From assembly GCF_044647545.1 (NCBI RefSeq), contig NZ_CP172818.1: DNA of 64,000 bases, one strand, 5' to 3'. A model generated the notes under the pieces. It ran no database searches. It was given only the letters and a program-made list of their open reading frames with translations, and had not been told where the DNA came from. Origin of the DNA: Escherichia coli (GTDB lineage: Bacteria; Pseudomonadota; Gammaproteobacteria; Enterobacterales; Enterobacteriaceae). The stretch's first letter is position 1. Each line of letters starts with the position of its first letter. Made by a program: the position numbers and the translations under genes. Below are positions 2,904-46,440 of the stretch, one piece after another.

Positions 2904-3407
2904 ATGAGCAATCTTACTTATCTTCAGGGTTATCCCGAGCAGCTACTTTCCCAGGTGCGAACGCTGATTAACGAACAGCGTCTGGGCGATGTGCTGGCAA
3001 AACGTTATCCGGGAACACACGACTACGCCACCGATAAAGCCCTCTGGCAATATACTCAGGATCTTAAAAATCAGTTTCTGCGCAATGCCCCGCCGATCAA
3101 TAAAGTGATGTATGACAATAAGATCCACGTGCTGAAAAACGCGCTCGGATTACATACTGCCGTTTCGCGTGTGCAGGGCGGCAAGCTGAAAGCAAAAGCA
3201 GAGATCCGCGTCGCTACCGTGTTTCGCAACGCGCCGGAACCGTTTTTGCGCATGATCGTGGTGCACGAGCTGGCGCACCTGAAGGAGAAAGAGCATAACA
3301 AAGCGTTTTACCAGTTGTGCTGTCATATGGAACCGCAGTACCACCAGCTTGAGTTCGACACCCGGCTGTGGCTAACGCAGTTGTCGCTTGGGCAGGACAA
3401 AATCTGA
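2904..3407 (+). CDS. ygjP: Putative metal-dependent hydrolase (DUF45/WLM-like, HExxH)
   Basis: ORF with internal start [11 protein letters not shown] giving 167 aa; HELAHL motif. Confidence 0.8.
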
Positions 3408-3483
3408 AAATGATGTCAGGCGTTATTTTTTCCTCCTTTAGCGCCTAAAATCGACCTCCTCCCTTTCGTTAAGGATAACGACC

Positions 3484-4176
3484 ATGCTGCGCGCATTTGC
3501 CCGCCTTCTTCTTCGTATTTGTTTTTCTCGCCGGACTCTTAAAATTGGCTGTTTATTGTTGCTTATAGCAGGAGCGACCATTTTTATTGCCGATCGCGTT
3601 ATGGTCAACGCCAGCAAGCAGCTGACCTGGAGTGATGTCAACGCCGTTCCGGCGCGGAACGTGGGTTTATTGCTGGGGGCGAGGCCGGGTAATCGCTACT
3701 TTACCCGACGTATTGATAGCGCCGCAGAGTTGTACCACGCCGGAAAAGTGAAATGGCTATTGGTGAGCGGCGATAATGGACGTAAAAATTACGATGAAGC
3801 GTCAGGAATGCAGCAAGCCTTGATCGCTAAAGGCGTACCGGCAAAAGCCATCTTCTGCGACTATGCCGGATTCTCAACGCTTGATTCGGTGGTGCGTGCC
3901 AACAAGGTGTTTAGTGAAAACCATATCACCATTATCTCGCAAGAATTTCATAACCAACGCGCCATCTGGCTGGCAAAACAGTATGGTATCGATGCTATCG
4001 GTTTTAACGCGCCAGACCTGAATATGAAGCACGGTTTATATACTCAACTGCGGGAAAAACTTGCCAGAGTCAGCGCGGTGATTGATGCGAAAATCCTCCA
4101 TCGCCAGCCGAAATATCTCGGGCCGTTGGTTATGATTGGGCCGTTTAGTGAGCATGGCTGTCCGGCAAAAGAATAA
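3484..4176 (+). CDS. ygjQ: DUF218 (ElyC/SanA-like) family protein
   Basis: 230 aa ORF with N-terminal hydrophobic segment. Confidence 0.8.
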
Positions 4177-4254
4177 TGCGTATCTGCGCACGTCGAAGAT
4201 AAAAAAGGCGTGCTACAGTGACGACAGAATCCCTTTATGGAGTATCCACGCGTT

Positions 4255-5241
4255 ATGATACGTTTCGCTGTGATTGGTACGAACTGGATCACTCGCCAGT
4301 TCGTCGAGGCCGCCCATGAGAGCGGTAAATACAAGTTAACCGCCGTCTATTCCCGCAGCCTTGAACAGGCCCAGCACTTCGCCAATGATTTTTCTGTCGA
4401 GCATCTGTTTACGTCGCTGGAAGCGATGGCAGAAAGCGATGCCATTGACGCGGTGTATATTGCCAGCCCAAATTCCCTGCACTTTTCCCAGACACAACTT
4501 TTCCTTAGTCACAAAATTCATGTGATTTGCGAGAAGCCACTGGCGTCGAATCAGGCGGAAGTGGATGCCGCCATTGCCTGTGCGCGGGAAAATCAGGTGG
4601 TGCTGTTTGAGGCATTTAAAACGGCCTACCTGCCGAACTTTCATCTGTTACGCCAGGCGCTGCCGAAAGTCGGCAAACTGCGTAAAGTCTTTTTCAACTA
4701 TTGCCAGTATTCCTCGCGGTATCAGCGTTACCTGGACGGAGAGAATCCCAACACCTTCAATCCGGCATTCTCCAACGGTTCGATTATGGATATCGGCTTT
4801 TACTGCCTGGCGTCGGCGGTGGCATTATTCGGTGAACCGAAAAGCGTGCAGGCAACCGCCAGTTTGCTGGCAAGCGGTGTGGATGCCCACGGCGTGGTGG
4901 TGATGGATTACGGTGATTTCAGCGTTACGTTGCAGCACTCAAAAGTGAGCGATTCTGTCCTGGCAAGCGAGATTCAGGGCGAAGCGGGATCGCTGGTGAT
5001 TGAAAAACTCTCTGAATGCCAGAAAGTCTGCTTTGTACCGCGTGGCAGCCAGATGCAGGATCTCACCCAGCCACAGCATATTAATACCATGCTCTACGAA
5101 GCAGAGCTGTTCGCTACCCTGGTGGATGAGCATCTGGTGAATCATCCAGGGCTGGCGGTCAGTCGTATCACCGCCAAACTGCTGACTGAGATCCGCCGCC
5201 AGACTGGGGTGATTTTTCCGGCAGATAACGTAAAACTATAA
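4255..5241 (+). CDS. ygjR: Gfo/Idh/MocA-family NAD(P)-dependent oxidoreductase
   Basis: Start chosen at MIRFAVIGTNWI (Rossmann GxGxxG-like N-terminus), 328 aa. Confidence 0.8.
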   Translation: MIRFAVIGTNWITRQFVEAAHESGKYKLTAVYSRSLEQAQHFANDFSVEHLFTSLEAMAESDAIDAVYIASPNSLHFSQTQLFLSHKIHVICEKPLASNQAEVDAAIACARENQVVLFEAFKTAYLPNFHLLRQALPKVGKLRKVFFNYCQYSSRYQRYLDGENPNTFNPAFSNGSIMDIGFYCLASAVALFGEPKSVQATASLLASGVDAHGVVVMDYGDFSVTLQHSKVSDSVLASEIQGEAGSLVIEKLSECQKVCFVPRGSQMQDLTQPQHINTMLYEAELFATLVDEHLVNHPGLAVSRITAKLLTEIRRQTGVIFPADNVKL

Positions 5242-5289
5242 TTGCCAAAGTAAAACAGTGTAAAAGGTATGTAACAGACCATTGACTGA

Positions 5290-5523
5290 CTGAATGGTCT
5301 GTCATACTTTGTTACCTGCAAAGGGGAGTAACTTCATTGTCGGTCGATCGTCATTACGATGTGTGAAAAACCACATCCGGTCACCGGGCAACCCGAAAGG
5401 AATACGCAGACGTATTCCTTTTTTGTTGTAAGTGAGACCTTGCCGGAAGGCGAGGTCTATGCATAAAAAGCAGCGGCTGACGTCTTCCGACGTTGGCCGT
5501 TTTTTTATGTGTAAGGAACTTCT
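5290..5523 (+). promoter_or_regulatory. alx 5' leader (yybP-ykoY-type Mn/pH-responsive leader with hairpin+U-run attenuators)
   Basis: Long untranslated leader before alx; hairpin aggaatacg-caga-cgtattcct followed by a T run at 5398-5426, and a second hairpin + T7 near 5465-5493. Confidence 0.5.
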
Positions 5524-6489
5524 ATGAATACTGTCGGCACGCCGTTGCTATGGGGCGGATTCGCTGTTGTTGTCACCATTATGCTGGCTATCGACCTGTT
5601 GTTGCAGGGGCGTCGTGGGGCACATGCCATGACCATGAAACAGGCTGCGGCCTGGTCGCTGGTCTGGGTGACGCTGTCGTTACTGTTTAACGCCGCTTTC
5701 TGGTGGTATCTGGTGCAAACCGAAGGTCGCGCCGTTGCCGATCCACAGGCACTGGCCTTTCTCACGGGTTATCTGATTGAGAAATCGCTGGCGGTCGATA
5801 ACGTCTTTGTCTGGCTGATGTTGTTCAGCTATTTCTCTGTTCCGGCGGCATTACAACGTCGCGTGCTGGTGTATGGCGTGCTTGGGGCGATTGTTCTGCG
5901 TACCATCATGATCTTCACTGGTAGCTGGCTGATTTCACAGTTCGACTGGATCTTGTATATCTTCGGTGCCTTCCTGCTGTTTACCGGCGTGAAGATGGCG
6001 CTGGCTCATGAAGATGAATCAGGCATTGGCGACAAGCCGCTGGTGCGCTGGCTACGCGGTCATTTACGCATGACCGACACCATCGACAACGAGCATTTCT
6101 TTGTGCGTAAGAATGGTTTGTTGTATGCCACGCCGCTGATGCTGGTGCTGATTCTGGTGGAGTTGAGCGACGTGATTTTCGCCGTGGATAGTATTCCGGC
6201 TATCTTCGCCGTGACCACCGATCCGTTTATTGTGCTGACCTCAAACCTGTTTGCGATCCTCGGCCTGCGTGCGATGTATTTCCTGCTGGCAGGTGTGGCA
6301 GAGCGTTTCTCGATGCTCAAATATGGTCTGGCGGTGATTCTGGTGTTTATCGGTATCAAGATGCTGATTGTCGACTTCTACCATATTCCGATCGCCGTCT
6401 CGCTGGGCGTGGTGTTTGGCATTCTGGTGATGACGTTTATTATCAACGCCTGGGTGAATTATCGGCATGATAAGCAGCGGGTAGAATAA
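5524..6489 (+). CDS. alx: TerC-family inner membrane protein (putative Mn exporter)
   Basis: 321 aa multi-pass membrane ORF. Confidence 0.9.
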
Positions 6490-13440: not shown

Positions 13441-13530
13441 AATCATGCGATTTATATTTTAACAATGGCATACGCATGCATAAAGTGGTATAATAACTTT
13501 GTCTGCCGCATTCCACTCCTGGAGACGCAT

Positions 13531-22207: not shown

Positions 22208-23518
22208 TTATCTGGCCTTGCTCGCCATAATCTCGATAATCTGCCGATCCGTTTGCTGCATCGAATGGCTTGCTAACGCACACAGGTTGGCAATCGACTG
22301 CTCAACATCATGCGCCACGATTCCTTCATTGCCGGTCACTGCGGTATCATCCAGCGCCATTAACACCGCTTTCCACGCAGCCGAAGCACTGGTCGAAACC
22401 TTCATCGCGCAGCTGTTCGACGCTCCATCGCAAATCATGCCGCTGACATCGCCGATCATACTGCTGATCGCCATCGAGATGGTTTCATAACGCCCATCCA
22501 CCAGCCATGCCATCCCGGCGGCGGCCCCCATTGCTGCGGTCGTTGCGGCACAAAGCGCAGACAAACGCGGTAACTGGTTATGGATGTAAATCGCGCTCAA
22601 ATGCGAAAGCATCAGCGCACGCGCCAGCCGTTCATCATCCGCTCCGAAGTGTTCTGCTACCACCACCACAGGCATTGTTGCGGTGATCCCCTGGTTACCC
22701 GAGCCGGAGTTACTCATTGCCGGAAGCGTAGCGCCGCCCATACGCGCATCGGATGCCGCGCTGGTACGAATCACAATGGATGAAGAGAGATCTTTCGCCA
22801 GCAAACCGCGCGCGCACTGTTTTTCCAGCGTCGCACCAATATGCAGCCCCCAGTTACCGCTCAAACCTTCCTGCGATAACGCACAATTTAACTTCGCAGA
22901 ATCGAGAATAAAGCGGATCGCCGCAAACGGGACCTCATTGACGAACTTCAGGATCTCAGCCAGCGTCGTCCTGGAAAGCACCGTCAGCGGCGACTCTTGC
23001 TCGCCCTCTGTCACACACGCCTGCTGGGTAAACACCACACCATTGTGCGTCTCAATATGCACAATGTTGGTATGCCCGCCGACAATGGTGACACACGCCC
23101 ACTTCTCACCGTTCCAGACTTTGGCGCGTGAGAAGAGGATTTCATCGCAAGGTTCCTGGATCTTAACTGAGACTTTCCCCGCCGCCAGCAGTGCTTTGGC
23201 ATCGGCAATTGCCTGCGCAGTTGCATCTTTCAGCACTTCCAGCCCGGCGTTAGCATTTCCACCTAACGCTCCCAGCGCCGCCGCAATCGGCAGCCCCACC
23301 ATTCCCGTGCCGGGAACGGTGACGCCCAGACCGTTCTTCATCAGATTTGGCGAAACCCAGGCTTCTACACGTTCAACCGGACCTTCCAGTTCTGCCGCAG
23401 CAACCGCCGCCGCCAGCGCCAGTGAAATCGGTTCAGTACATCCCAGCGCCGGTTTTACTTCCTCCTGAACGGCGAGGATGTAACGCTGCCATAACGGATT
23501 TAAAGTCGAATCAAACAT
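22208..23518 (-). CDS. cyuA: L-cysteine desulfidase
   Basis: 436 aa ORF (yhaM). Confidence 0.9.
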
Positions 23519-23545
23519 ATTAAAAACCTTAAAATTTCAGGTAAA

Positions 23546-23931
23546 TCAAGAAAATGCCAGGAACGGAGAAACACAAAGCAACAAACCAGTGACGATAATC
23601 AGGTACAGAGACATCCCTTTGTATTTGTGCAATGCCGGTACTTTGTAAACCAGCCACGCCGGGATCAGGCACCCTACCATGCCGAAAATCGGGCTACAGA
23701 TAGAGGTGAAGCTCAACACCGGTGCGTTCAGTACGATGGCGCTCCAGGCCAGCAAAATGGCGAAAATCATGATGCCGCGCTGAACGAGATTTTCGTTAAT
23801 CTTCTCGGCAGGCATCTTGCGACGCAGGATGTTCATTACGATCCCTTGCGTTGCTTCGCGAAAGCCTAAATAGACGCCAAAAAACGCGGTCATTACTGCA
23901 AAGATATTGAGAATGACGCTGACCCTTTCAC
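23546..23931 (-). pseudogene. cyuP: 3' fragment of the cysteine transporter gene cyuP (yhaO); 5' part replaced by anomalous sequence
   Basis: Reading frame ends ...VSVILNIFAVMTAFFGVYLGFREATQG...LLLCVSPFLAFS; upstream of codon ~23931 the frame runs into G/P/W-rich low-complexity translation. Confidence 0.75.
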
Positions 23932-24645
<714 letters not shown>

Positions 24646-24893
24646 TTACCGAAAGCGTCAAAGAAAATGCTTATCTTATCGATCCAAAAATTAATTACAA
24701 TACAGATTTAAACATAGAGGATTCTAGCTCAGAGGAATTCCTTTCAGATAATACACTAGAGAAAGACGAAAATTCTCCTGACAATTGCTTTGAGGTCGTA
24801 AAATATAACACATATGAAGCTTATAACTCAGAGAAGCAATATTTTACCAGAGAGGACTATACGTATGATTACGACCTTTTAAATGCAATATAG
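24646..24893 (+). pseudogene. AT-rich 3' gene fragment, possibly the end of yhaC
   Basis: In-frame translation ...ENAYLIDPKINYNTDLNIEDSSSEEFLSDNTLEKDENSPDNCFEVVKYNTYEAYNSEKQYFTREDYTYDYDLLNAI*; position just upstream of the rnpB terminators; identity to yhaC not verified. Confidence 0.3.
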
Positions 24894-24949
24894 ACTTAAT
24901 AATTTCTTACAAAGTCTATTATTAATACCGTAGATATTTATTCATCTTA

Positions 24950-25025
24950 CTCCAAAAGCAAAAACCCGCCGAAGCGGGTTTTTATAAAGCTCCAAAAGCA
25001 AAAACCCGCCGAAGCGGGTTTTTAC
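24950..25025 (-). terminator. Tandem direct repeats each carrying a hairpin terminator downstream of rnpB
   Basis: Two copies of ctccaaaagcaaaaacccgccgaagcgggttttta (24950-24987, 24990-25025); on the minus strand cccgcttcggcggg followed by a T run. Confidence 0.7.
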
Positions 25026-25032
25026 GTAAAAC

Positions 25033-25409
<377 letters not shown>

Positions 25410-35517: not shown

Positions 35518-35919
35518 ATGGAAATCAGTCTGTTGCAGGCATTCGCGTTGGGCATTATCGCCTTTATCGCTGGCCTGGATATGTTTAACGGCCTAACCCA
35601 TATGCACCGCCCGGTGGTCCTCGGCCCGTTGGTCGGGCTGGTACTTGGCGATCTGCATACCGGTATTTTAACCGGCGGTACGCTGGAACTGGTGTGGATG
35701 GGGCTGGCCCCGCTGGCGGGCGCACAGCCGCCTAACGTGATTATCGGTACTATCGTCGGCACGGCGTTTGCCATTACTACTGGCGTGAAACCCGATGTCG
35801 CGGTCGGTGTCGCCGTACCTTTCGCTGTCGCAGTACAGATGGGGATTACCTTCCTGTTCTCGGTGATGTCCGGCGTGATGTCCCGCGGCGACCTGGCAAC
35901 AAACCCGTGCCGCGTTTGA
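35518..35919 (+). pseudogene. agaW: Truncated PTS EIIC gene (agaW'), K-12-type
   Basis: 133 aa EIIC N-terminal fragment ending abruptly (...DLATNPCRV*). Confidence 0.8.
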
Positions 35920-41086: not shown

Positions 41087-41953
41087 ATGGAACGAGGCAC
41101 TGCGTCTGGCGGTGCCTCTTTACTTAAGGAATTTCATCCTGTGCAAACCCTTCAACAAGTTGAAAACTATACGGCGTTAAGTGAACGTGCCAGCGAATAT
41201 TTATTGGCCGTGATCCGTAGTAAACCGGATGCCGTGATTTGCCTGGCGACCGGAGCCACGCCATTACTGACGTATCATTATCTGGTAGAAAAAATCCACC
41301 AGCAGCAGGTTGATGTCAGCCAGCTCACCTTCGTGAAGCTCGACGAATGGGTGGATCTGCCATTAACAATGCCTGGCACCTGCGAAACTTTCCTACAACA
41401 GCATATCGTGCAGCCGCTGGGGCTGCGTGAAGACCAGCTCATCAGCTTTCGCTCTGAAGAGATAAATGAGACAGAGTGCGAACGGGTAACGAACCTGATT
41501 GCGCGCAAAGGCGGTCTGGATTTATGCGTTCTCGGATTGGGGAAAAACGGTCATCTTGGGCTGAACGAACCGGGAGAAAGCCTGCAACCGGCCTGCCATA
41601 TCAGTCAACTTGATGCCAGAACACAGCAACATGAGATGTTAAAAACCGCGGGCCGTCCCGTGACTCGTGGGATCACCTTAGGCCTGAAGGATATTCTCAA
41701 TACCCGCGAAGTTTTGCTACTGGTGACTGGCGAAGGAAAGCAGGATGCGACAGAACGTTTTCTCACGGCTAAAGTCTCTACCGCTATCCCGGCTTCTTGG
41801 GGCAACGCCCACACTCTCCCCCTGCTGCTCCAGTGCATACTTATACAGCGCATTTTTCTTCACGCCGTGAATTTCTGCTGCCAGCGCCGCCGCTTTTTTC
41901 AGTGGCAGTTCTGCCTGCAACAGCGCCAGCGTGCGCAGGGCATCGGCGGGTAA
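41087..41953 (+). pseudogene. agaI: Glucosamine-6-phosphate deaminase/isomerase-like gene with altered 3' end (native stop lost; frame runs antisense into rsmI)
   Basis: ORF is 288 aa versus an expected ~251; tail after ~41815 is the antisense of the rsmI 3' end. Confidence 0.7.
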
Positions 41954-46325: not shown

Positions 46326-46440
46326 GCCATTGATCGGTCGTTGAAGTAAATATTCACACCTTAGCCGACCTGTTCCCCTCACCCTAACCCTCCCCAAACC
46401 GAAAGGGGACAGATCAGGCTGTATTCAGGAGCATCCAACA

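What the first reader, a model, noticed from the sequence alone, without database searches (positions are those of the whole stretch)
22208..23931. cyuA is intact but its co-transcribed transporter cyuP is decapitated, probably orphaning the operon
cyuP-cyuA is an operon transcribed from upstream of cyuP on the minus strand. The cyuP start and promoter region are replaced by the anomalous segment, so cyuA (436 aa, full length) may lack its native promoter and cysteine-responsive control, and the truncated cyuP cannot encode a functional transporter.
Basis: inference. Interest (0 to 1): 0.4.

Follow-up and report, generated by a model that had tools for sequence, protein, structure and literature searches.

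The report
IS1 deletion beheads cyuP; filler artefact
An ordinary insertion-sequence (IS1) deletion, already annotated in four sister E. coli genomes, removed the front of the cysteine importer gene cyuP and the whole neighbouring tdc operon, and the odd GC-rich stretch at the break is a sequence-assembly artefact, not biology.

Summary
cyuA (22208-23518, minus strand) is full length and has no nucleotide differences from its closest relatives. Only the last 132 codons of cyuP remain (23546-23936).

It spans 12.3 kb: cyuP codons 1-311 with the promoter, tdcGFEDCBA, tdcR, yhaB and most of yhaC.

Four complete sister genomes have the same two breakpoints, with a 768-bp IS1 between them. A fifth shares the left breakpoint but has a shorter deletion, which fits stepwise IS1 adjacent deletion.

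The window's 707-bp "anomalous segment" (23937-24643) sits where IS1 should be. It is C/G low-complexity text, including a G28 run, around a deletion-riddled copy of tdcE. That copy carries K-12 alleles at 17 of 17 informative sites. The rest of the window carries the sister-clone allele at 1506 of 1508 sites.

The window also follows K-12 structure at four other loci, so it looks like a K-12-templated consensus artefact.

cyuA has therefore really lost its CyuR/Crp promoter. In the real genome it most likely lies downstream of IS1, whose insAB' genes read towards it. Weak constitutive read-through is possible but untested.

This is ordinary and already annotated, so interest is low.

The parts
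22208..23518 (-). cyuA (yhaM), L-cysteine desulfidase, intact at 436 aa
   Evidence: ORF. Identical in nucleotides to cyuA of NZ_AP022098.1 (0 of 1311 differences) and 4 aa different from K-12. Pfam SDH_alpha 1.8e-58. RefSeq name.
23519..23545 (-). 27-bp cyuP-cyuA intergenic spacer, with an AAGG Shine-Dalgarno-like motif ahead of the cyuA ATG
   Evidence: Sequence. No promoter-like site here.
23546..23936 (-). cyuP (yhaO) 3' remnant, covering the last ~130 of 443 codons. It has a 1-bp deletion at 23925 and lacks the final 7 bp (CTGCGCC) that the sister genomes keep before IS1.
   Evidence: BLAST to L001 and L002. Junction views. Pseudogene annotation.
23937..24080 (.). Artefact, left part: C-rich low-complexity text (C 84, A 37, T 16, G 7; C9 and C12 runs)
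   Evidence: No similarity to IS1 or to the deleted region above shuffles.
24081..24493 (+). Artefact, core: a deletion-riddled copy of K-12-type tdcE in its native orientation. 413 bases stand for 629 bp of the gene.
   Evidence: Against K-12 tdcE: 408 matches, 4 substitutions, 217 deletions, 1 insertion, score 257 against shuffles of at most 49 to 55. 17 of 17 informative sites carry the K-12 allele. pflB scores only 95. tdcE is the only hit in 5394 E. coli genomes.
24494..24643 (.). Artefact, right part: C/G-only text (C 75, G 68, A 7, T 0) including C12 and a G28 run at 24603-24630
24644..24650 (.). CATTACC, the last 7 bases of IS1 (the insA-proximal inverted repeat). This is the only recognisable trace of the IS1 that occupies this site in the sister genomes.
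   Evidence: L001 reads ...GTTGGCACCATTACC|GAAAGCG. Intact genomes read ...GATTAT|GAAAGCG.
24651..24893 (+). yhaC 3' remnant, the last 80 codons plus stop of 395
   Evidence: right junction = L002 30228. Clone-type alleles resume at 24677.
24950..25019 (.). Two tandem copies of the rnpB terminator hairpin (35 bp each). The sister genome has one copy and K-12 has three at 113-bp spacing. This looks like a collapsed rendering of the K-12 repeats.
25033..25409 (-). rnpB (RNase P RNA), intact. It marks the far side of the deletion.
   Evidence: Rfam RF00010, 318.6 bits. Annotation.

Best explanation
In the strain behind this window, an IS1 element inserted in cyuP and IS1-promoted adjacent deletion removed 12.3 kb. 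The lost DNA comprises cyuP codons 1-311 with the CyuR/Crp-dependent cyuPA promoter, tdcGFEDCBA, tdcR, yhaB and the first 315 codons of yhaC. What remains is cyuA intact, then 132 codons of cyuP, then IS1, then 80 codons of yhaC, then rnpB.

The 707 bp printed at 23937-24643 is not the organism's DNA. It is a sequence-construction artefact occupying IS1's place. It consists of C/G low-complexity text around a copy of K-12-type tdcE that has lost a third of its bases (T most, then A and G, C least). It most likely arose because the sequence was built or patched on a K-12-like template.

Consequences, all inferred:
- The high-flux cysteine importer is dead.
- cyuA has lost cysteine and cAMP-Crp control.
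- cyuA is either silent or weakly and constitutively transcribed by read-through from IS1's own autorepressed promoter, which points at it.
- Anaerobic cysteine, threonine and serine fermentation through cyu and tdc is lost.

Shown: the gene states, the breakpoints, the identity of the breakpoints with sister genomes, and the K-12 origin of the junk. Inferred: that IS1 is physically present in this strain, how the artefact was made, and the expression state of cyuA.
For: Breakpoints and sister genomes:
- Four complete genomes (NZ_AP022098.1, CP103468, CM169490, LR130555) match the flanks at 99.7%. At this site they carry cyuA, then the cyuP pseudogene, then IS1, then the truncated yhaC, then rnpB.
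- The window's homology stops within 7 bp of their left IS1 junction.
- It resumes exactly at their right junction, including IS1's terminal CATTACC.
- The 707-bp replaced stretch is close in size to the 768-bp IS1.
- Strain E17 has the identical left junction and IS1 orientation, but its right junction lies in yhaB (L002 28734 rather than 30228). No target-site duplication is seen. This is the multistep adjacent-deletion pattern described in PMC11708052.

The anomalous segment:
- Its core aligns to tdcE with 408 matches, 4 substitutions and 217 deletions.
- 17 of 17 informative sites carry the K-12 allele and none carries the allele of the closest intact relative.
- Outside the segment the window carries the sister-clone allele at 1506 of 1508 sites.
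- Clone alleles run to 23897 and resume at 24677.

K-12 templating elsewhere in the window:
- The window is collinear with K-12 across the exuT/exuR junction and the aga deletion.
- All complete genomes of the same lineage (at least 99% identity) have extra DNA at both places.
- Where K-12 has extra or divergent DNA (yraHIJK, the rnpB terminator repeats, a 111-bp patch), the window shows short degraded text.

Operon biology:
- The cyuPA operon, its CyuR and Crp control and polarity onto cyuA are documented (PMC9040844; PMC11408624).
- The IS1 promoter (L001 5706-5679, minus strand) and insAB' point towards cyuA, with no terminator-like site between.
Against: - No reads are available, so IS1's presence in this particular strain is inferred from only 7 retained bases plus breakpoint identity. 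Four of those 7 bases (ATTA) also occur in the intact sequence.
- I could not identify a pipeline that produces base-specific dropout (T most, then A and G, C least) and G28/C12 runs, so the artefact mechanism is unexplained.
- The source record was not found in any collection searched.
- The exuT-exuR intergenic text beside the junction is clone-like, not K-12-like. A simple 'reference bases fill the gaps' model is therefore incomplete.
- Expression of cyuA was not and cannot be measured here.
Confidence: 0.8

Rival explanations
1. The truncation itself is an assembly artefact. The strain has an intact cyuP-tdc-yhaC region that was collapsed to 707 bp of junk.
For: The window demonstrably contains artefactual text and misses DNA that every close relative has. 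Its structure therefore cannot be trusted at face value. The junk does contain tdcE-derived sequence.
Against: - Both collapse points coincide with the IS1 junctions of four sister genomes. The left is within 7 bp, and the right is exact with IS1's CATTACC. By chance this is about (8/12000)^2.
- The tdcE text carries K-12 alleles at 17 of 17 sites and not the lineage's own.
- If the strain's own reads had covered tdc, clone-type alleles would be expected there, as they are at 1506 of 1508 sites elsewhere.
Confidence: 0.07
2. The anomalous segment is real DNA: either a foreign high-GC insertion or a naturally decayed tdcE pseudogene left by a complex rearrangement.
For: It is contiguous with good sequence on both sides, and it has long mechanical ORFs (202-204 aa).
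Against: - There are 217 deletions and 1 insertion in 629 bp, with base-specific dropout. No known mutational process does this.
- The G28 and C12 runs and a T-free 150-bp stretch would be unstable in E. coli.
- The K-12 alleles sit inside a non-K-12 genome.
- The only matches in E. coli genomes and plasmids are to tdcE.
- The same kind of degraded text recurs at three other K-12-discordant sites.
- Sister genomes have a clean IS1 at this position.
Confidence: 0.03
3. The deletion is real, and cyuA is kept functional. IS1 read-through or an IS1/flank fusion promoter gives constitutive, CyuR-independent CyuA, providing cysteine detoxification or H2S production without the importer, and this is selected.
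For: - cyuA is perfectly intact.
- insAB' and the IS1 promoter face cyuA with no terminator-like site between them.
- IS1 fusion promoters are documented for blaTEM and acrEF (PMC9330008).
- IS1-associated loss of this region arose at least twice independently, in E138 and in the NZ_AP022098.1 clone.
Against: - Zero nucleotide differences from relatives means the event is recent, so an intact gene says nothing about selection.
- No sigma-70-like site was found at the IS1-cyuP' junction or in the remnant. Counts were no higher than in shuffles.
- IS1's own promoter is weak and autorepressed, and IS1 insertions are classically polar (own knowledge, not tested here).
- In E138 the IS1 has the opposite orientation, so there is no consistent architecture.
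Confidence: 0.1

Closest known systems
The cyuA / cyuP-pseudogene / IS1 / truncated-yhaC / rnpB locus of E. coli WP4-S18-ESBL-09 (NZ_AP022098.1), 4973 (NZ_CP103468.1), EC11 (NZ_CM169490.1) and MS14385 (NZ_LR130555.1)
   Same: Both deletion breakpoints are the same. cyuA is identical, the cyuP and yhaC remnants are the same, and flanks match at 99.9-100%.
   Different: Those genomes have a clean 768-bp IS1 where the window prints 707 bp of junk. They also carry the CS1-type fimbrial operon and the full agaW-agaA segment, both of which the window lacks.
IS-promoted adjacent deletions, the classical IS1 behaviour (multistep insertion, deletion, then extension as in PMC11708052)
   Same: One IS end is fixed and the other boundary varies between relatives (E17 versus the NZ_AP022098.1 type). 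There is no target-site duplication, and the IS is retained at the deletion.
   Different: Nothing mechanistically different was seen. The order of events is inferred from two extant states, not observed.
The wild-type cyuPA operon of E. coli K-12 (CyuR/DecR- and Crp-controlled cysteine import and desulfidation)
   Same: The cyuA gene is the same (4 aa differences), as are the 27-bp spacer and the cyuP 3' end.
   Different: The promoter, the CyuR site and 311 of 443 cyuP codons are absent. The adjacent tdc operon is also gone.
Reference-templated consensus or patching artefacts in genome assemblies
   Same: Sample-specific insertions are missing. Template-specific regions are rendered as degraded template-allele text. 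Errors are confined to structural discordances.
   Different: The base-specific dropout and the long G and C homopolymers are not typical of any consensus caller I can name. The pipeline remains unidentified.

Membership tests
CyuA (YhaM) L-cysteine desulfidase | Full-length ~436-aa protein of the serine-dehydratase-alpha-like fold, orthologous to E. coli K-12 CyuA | tested here: met
   436 aa. Identical to WP_000460504.1 ('cysteine desulfidase') and 4 aa different from K-12 YP_026202.1. Pfam PF03313 at 1.8e-58, covering profile positions 2-259 of 260.
CyuA (YhaM) L-cysteine desulfidase | Oxygen-sensitive Fe-S enzyme activity that produces pyruvate, NH4+ and H2S | not testable with these tools
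   Biochemistry is known for the K-12 enzyme (PMC9040844). Here it is inferred from near-identity only.
CyuP (YhaO) cysteine importer | Complete 443-aa polytopic permease | tested here: not met
   Only the C-terminal ~130 codons remain. RefSeq marks the same remnant as a pseudogene missing its N-terminus.
cyuPA operon (CyuR/Crp-regulated) | Promoter and CyuR binding site upstream of cyuP, driving both genes | tested here: not met
   The whole upstream region (from L002 17946 onward) is absent from the window and from the sister genomes. The promoter location is taken from PMC9040844 and PMC11408624.
IS1 insertion sequence | 768-bp element with terminal inverted repeats and insA/insB' with a programmed frameshift | tested here: not met
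   In the window only the terminal CATTACC is present, and the junk resembles IS1 no more than shuffles do. The feature is met in sister genomes at the same site (L001 4946-5713).
IS-mediated adjacent deletion | IS retained at the deletion, no target-site duplication, and one fixed end with a variable far end among relatives | tested here: met
   Flanks are GCTGCGCC|IS1|GAAAGCGT with no duplication. E17 shares the left junction, with its right junction 1494 bp earlier.
tdcE (2-ketobutyrate/pyruvate formate-lyase) gene | Intact 2295-bp ORF | tested here: not met
   Only 413 bases are present, corresponding to 629 bp of the gene, with 217 deletions. This is not a gene and most likely not the strain's DNA.

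The most novel reading that the evidence does not exclude
The IS1-truncated locus is an adaptive rewiring. cyuA is transcribed constitutively from IS1 (by read-through or a fusion promoter). This uncouples H2S production and cysteine detoxification from CyuR/Crp control and from high-flux import. The recurrent IS1-associated loss of cyuP-tdc in independent clinical lineages would reflect selection against anaerobic cysteine, threonine and serine fermentation.
Probability: 0.08. Interest if true: 0.3.

Novelty: already known. Interest (0 to 1): 0.1.

Why it matters
Biologically it matters little. An IS1 adjacent deletion that pseudogenises a transporter and removes a dispensable catabolic operon is routine in E. 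coli. This exact allele is already annotated in RefSeq genomes. The predicted phenotype is loss of CyuP-dependent cysteine fermentation and of tdc-dependent threonine and serine fermentation, with cyuA no longer cysteine-inducible.

The practical value is as a data-quality warning. The window contains non-biological text and is missing DNA at several K-12-discordant sites. Other 'anomalies' reported from this window, such as high-GC ORFs, absent islands or homopolymers, should be treated as artefacts until reads are checked.

Tried and rejected
- Junk as a degraded IS1. Deletion-tolerant local alignment in both orientations scored no better than shuffles.
- Junk as cross-mapped pflB paralogue reads. 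pflB scores 95 with 47 substitutions, against 257 with 4 substitutions for K-12 tdcE.
- Junk as a foreign high-GC or plasmid insertion. The PLSDB distant search returned only E. coli tdcE, and the E. coli genome search also returned only tdcE.
- Finding the source assembly by an exact 83-mer from the junk. There were 0 hits in GTDB representative genomes and 0 in JGI metagenome contigs. No RefSeq complete E. coli genome covers the junk.
- An internal or fusion promoter for cyuA. Sigma-70 scans of the window (23400-25100) and of the sister locus found nothing between the break and cyuA. Counts were no higher than in shuffles.
- The left and right thirds of the junk could not be traced to any source.
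- The sequence type of the sister strains could not be established from the literature.
- Loddeke et al. 2017 (PMC5527379) is not held.

Full report
**Context.** The window is the E. coli region from ygjR through exuT, yqj, yha, cyuA, rnpB, gar and aga to pnp. On the minus strand, cyuA is the ORF at 22208-23518 (436 aa). It has no nucleotide differences from cyuA of NZ_AP022098.1 (WP_000460504.1, 'cysteine desulfidase'), differs from K-12 CyuA at 4 residues, and matches Pfam SDH_alpha at 1.8e-58. After a 27-bp spacer, homology to cyuP runs from 23546 to 23936 and stops. Intact cyuP has 443 codons, so about 311 codons and everything upstream are missing.

**What is actually missing.** In relatives with an intact locus, such as FDAARGOS_497 (L002, 99.9% identical in the flanks), the order is cyuA, cyuP, tdcG, tdcF, tdcE, tdcD, tdcC, tdcB, tdcA, tdcR, yhaB, yhaC, rnpB. 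In the window, good sequence resumes at 24644 and continues into the last 80 codons of yhaC (24651-24893) and rnpB (25033-25409, Rfam 318.6 bits). The gap corresponds to L002 17946-30227, which is 12,282 bp. It is not just the cyuP start and promoter.

**What sits at the break in relatives.** Of 5426 complete E. coli genomes, four match the region end to end at 99.7%: NZ_AP022098.1, NZ_CP103468.1, NZ_CM169490.1 and NZ_LR130555.1. Only the central ~20% fails to match. All four are annotated cyuA, 'amino acid permease, incomplete, missing N-terminus', IS1 family transposase, truncated hypothetical protein, rnpB. In L001 the IS1 is 768 bp (4946-5713) with junctions ...CACGCTGCGCC|GGTAATGAC... and ...GGCACCATTACC|GAAAGCGTC....

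The window's left homology ends 7 bp before that left junction. Its right homology begins with CATTACC|GAAAGCGTC, which is IS1's last seven bases followed by the same yhaC base. Intact genomes read GATTAT|GAAAGCG at this point. Two breakpoints coinciding within a 12-kb interval is not plausibly chance.

A fifth genome, E17, has the identical left junction and IS1 orientation, but its right junction lies in yhaB (L002 28734). A fixed IS end, a variable far end and no target-site duplication are the signature of stepwise IS-promoted adjacent deletion (PMC11708052). E138, from a different lineage (97.6% identity), has an independent IS1-associated deletion in the opposite orientation that leaves a 210-bp cyuP remnant.

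**What the 'anomalous segment' is.** Window 23937-24643 (707 bp) reaches 86% GC in 200-bp windows and contains C9, C12, C12 and G28 runs.
- The left 144 bp are C-rich (C 84, A 37, T 16, G 7).
- The right 150 bp contain no T at all.
- The middle 413 bp (24081-24493) align in the native orientation to 629 bp of tdcE. Against the lineage's allele there are 396 matches, 17 substitutions, 216 deletions and no insertions. The deleted bases are T 102, A 50, G 50 and C 14. The score is 222, against at most 55 for shuffles.
- Against K-12 tdcE the fit is better: 408 matches and 4 substitutions.
- At the 23 sites where K-12 and the closest intact relative differ, 17 are retained and all 17 carry the K-12 base.
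- pflB fits far worse.
- IS1 fits no better than shuffles.
- Searches of E. coli genomes and of plasmids return only tdcE.

Outside the segment, the window carries the sister-clone allele at 1506 of 1508 sites where that clone differs from K-12. Clone alleles run up to 23897 and resume at 24677. So a K-12-derived, one-third-deleted, T-depleted gene fragment sits inside a non-K-12 genome, exactly where the sisters have IS1. No biological process explains this, so I treat it as an artefact.

**Corroboration from the rest of the window.** Compared with NZ_AP022098.1 the window is 99.93-100% identical, but it differs structurally at several sites.
- It lacks the 5.3-kb CS1-type fimbrial operon between exuT and exuR (junction 13436/13437).
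- It lacks 2.3 kb of agaW-agaE-agaF-agaA (junction near 35885).
- At both sites the window is collinear with K-12.
- No complete genome of the same lineage lacks either segment. The best full-length matches are only 94.9% and 98.4% identical, and the latter are K-12-type strains.
- Where K-12 has DNA that the clone lacks, or DNA that is divergent, the window prints short degraded C-enriched text. This occurs at 41797-41818, where K-12 has yraHIJK and the clone has 108 bp. It occurs at 24950-25019, a collapsed form of K-12's 113-bp rnpB-terminator repeats. It also occurs at 46392-46415.
- The two K-12 alleles outside the junk lie next to the two K-12-like junctions.

The simplest reading is that the sequence was built or patched on a K-12-like template. 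I could not identify the pipeline. The clone-like intergenic text beside the exuT/exuR junction shows the process is not a simple fill-in with reference bases. The source record was not found.

**Is the truncation real?** Almost certainly yes. If the strain's own DNA had covered cyuP-tdc, clone-type alleles would appear there, as they do everywhere else. Instead the only text there is K-12-type. The breakpoints are those of the sister genomes, and an IS1 end is retained. I put the alternative, an intact locus collapsed by assembly, at about 7%.

**Consequences for cyuA.** cyuPA is a polycistronic operon induced more than 50-fold by cysteine through CyuR. It also requires Crp, and its validated CyuR site lies upstream of the operon. 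Workers use non-polar cyuP deletions specifically to avoid effects on cyuA (PMC9040844; PMC11408624). With that region gone, cyuA has lost its native control, and the 132-codon CyuP remnant cannot transport.

In the real arrangement, however, IS1's insA/insB' genes (L001 4961-5658) and the promoter-like site in its inverted repeat (5706-5679) lie on the same strand as cyuA. They point at it, and no terminator-like site lies between them. Low, cysteine-independent read-through is therefore possible. No sigma-70-like site was found at the IS1/cyuP' junction, in the remnant or in the spacer, and counts were no higher than in shuffles. IS1 can form fusion promoters elsewhere (PMC9330008). From general knowledge, IS1's own promoter is weak and autorepressed, and IS1 insertions are usually polar. 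My best estimate is therefore that cyuA is silent or only weakly expressed. This is inference. The intactness of cyuA carries no information about selection, because it has no nucleotide differences from relatives and the event must be recent.

**Verdict.** The finding is real at the gene level but ordinary. It is an IS1 adjacent deletion already annotated in public genomes. The feature that made it look strange is a sequence artefact. Interest is low. Its main use is as a caution about this window's reliability.

Noticed in passing
window 13436/13437 (exuT-exuR intergenic): The 5.3-kb CS1-type fimbrial operon (chaperone, major subunit, usher, adhesin) is absent. It is present in NZ_AP022098.1 and in every complete genome of at least 99% identity. 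The window is collinear with K-12 here, and the best full-length matches are only 94.9% identical. A G-to-A change and a 3-bp CTG insertion at 13492-13505 are K-12-like.
   Followed up: partly
window ~35885 (agaW/agaA): A 2.3-kb deletion of agaW'-agaE-agaF-'agaA has the same junction as the classical K-12 aga deletion. No same-lineage complete genome has it; the best full-length hits are K-12-type strains at about 98%.
   Followed up: partly
window 41797-41818 (agaI 3' end / rsmI): 22 bp of C-enriched text (TTGGGGCAACGCCCACACTCTC) stand where the sister genome has 108 bp and K-12 has the 5.5-kb yraHIJK fimbrial operon. The style of degradation matches the main junk. The agaI 3' end is affected.
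   Followed up: partly
window 24950-25019: The rnpB terminator hairpin is present as two tandem 35-bp copies. The sister genome has one copy and K-12 has three at 113-bp spacing. This looks like a collapsed rendering of the K-12 repeats.
   Followed up: partly
window 46392-46415: A cluster of substitutions and deletions relative to the sister genome lies within a REP-like hairpin. It sits inside a 111-bp patch that does not align to K-12. This is probably another locally degraded spot.
   Followed up: no
window 23925: A 1-bp deletion (GACCACTTT to GACCCTTT) in the cyuP remnant lies 12 bp before the junk. Sequence quality decays before the breakpoint.
   Followed up: yes
window 23546-24711, both strands: Mechanical ORFs of 150-204 aa, rich in Gly, Pro, Arg and Ala, run through the junk. 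They are by-products of the GC-rich artefact and are not genes.
   Followed up: yes
L008 (NZ_AP022351.1, strain E138) 2975-4090; L009 (NZ_CM143886.1, strain E17) 3047-4741: E138, from a different lineage, has an independent IS1-associated loss of cyuP 5' and tdc, with IS1 in the opposite orientation. E17 has the same left junction as the window's clone but its deletion ends in yhaB. About 32 of 5426 complete genomes lack the tdcE segment altogether.
   Followed up: partly
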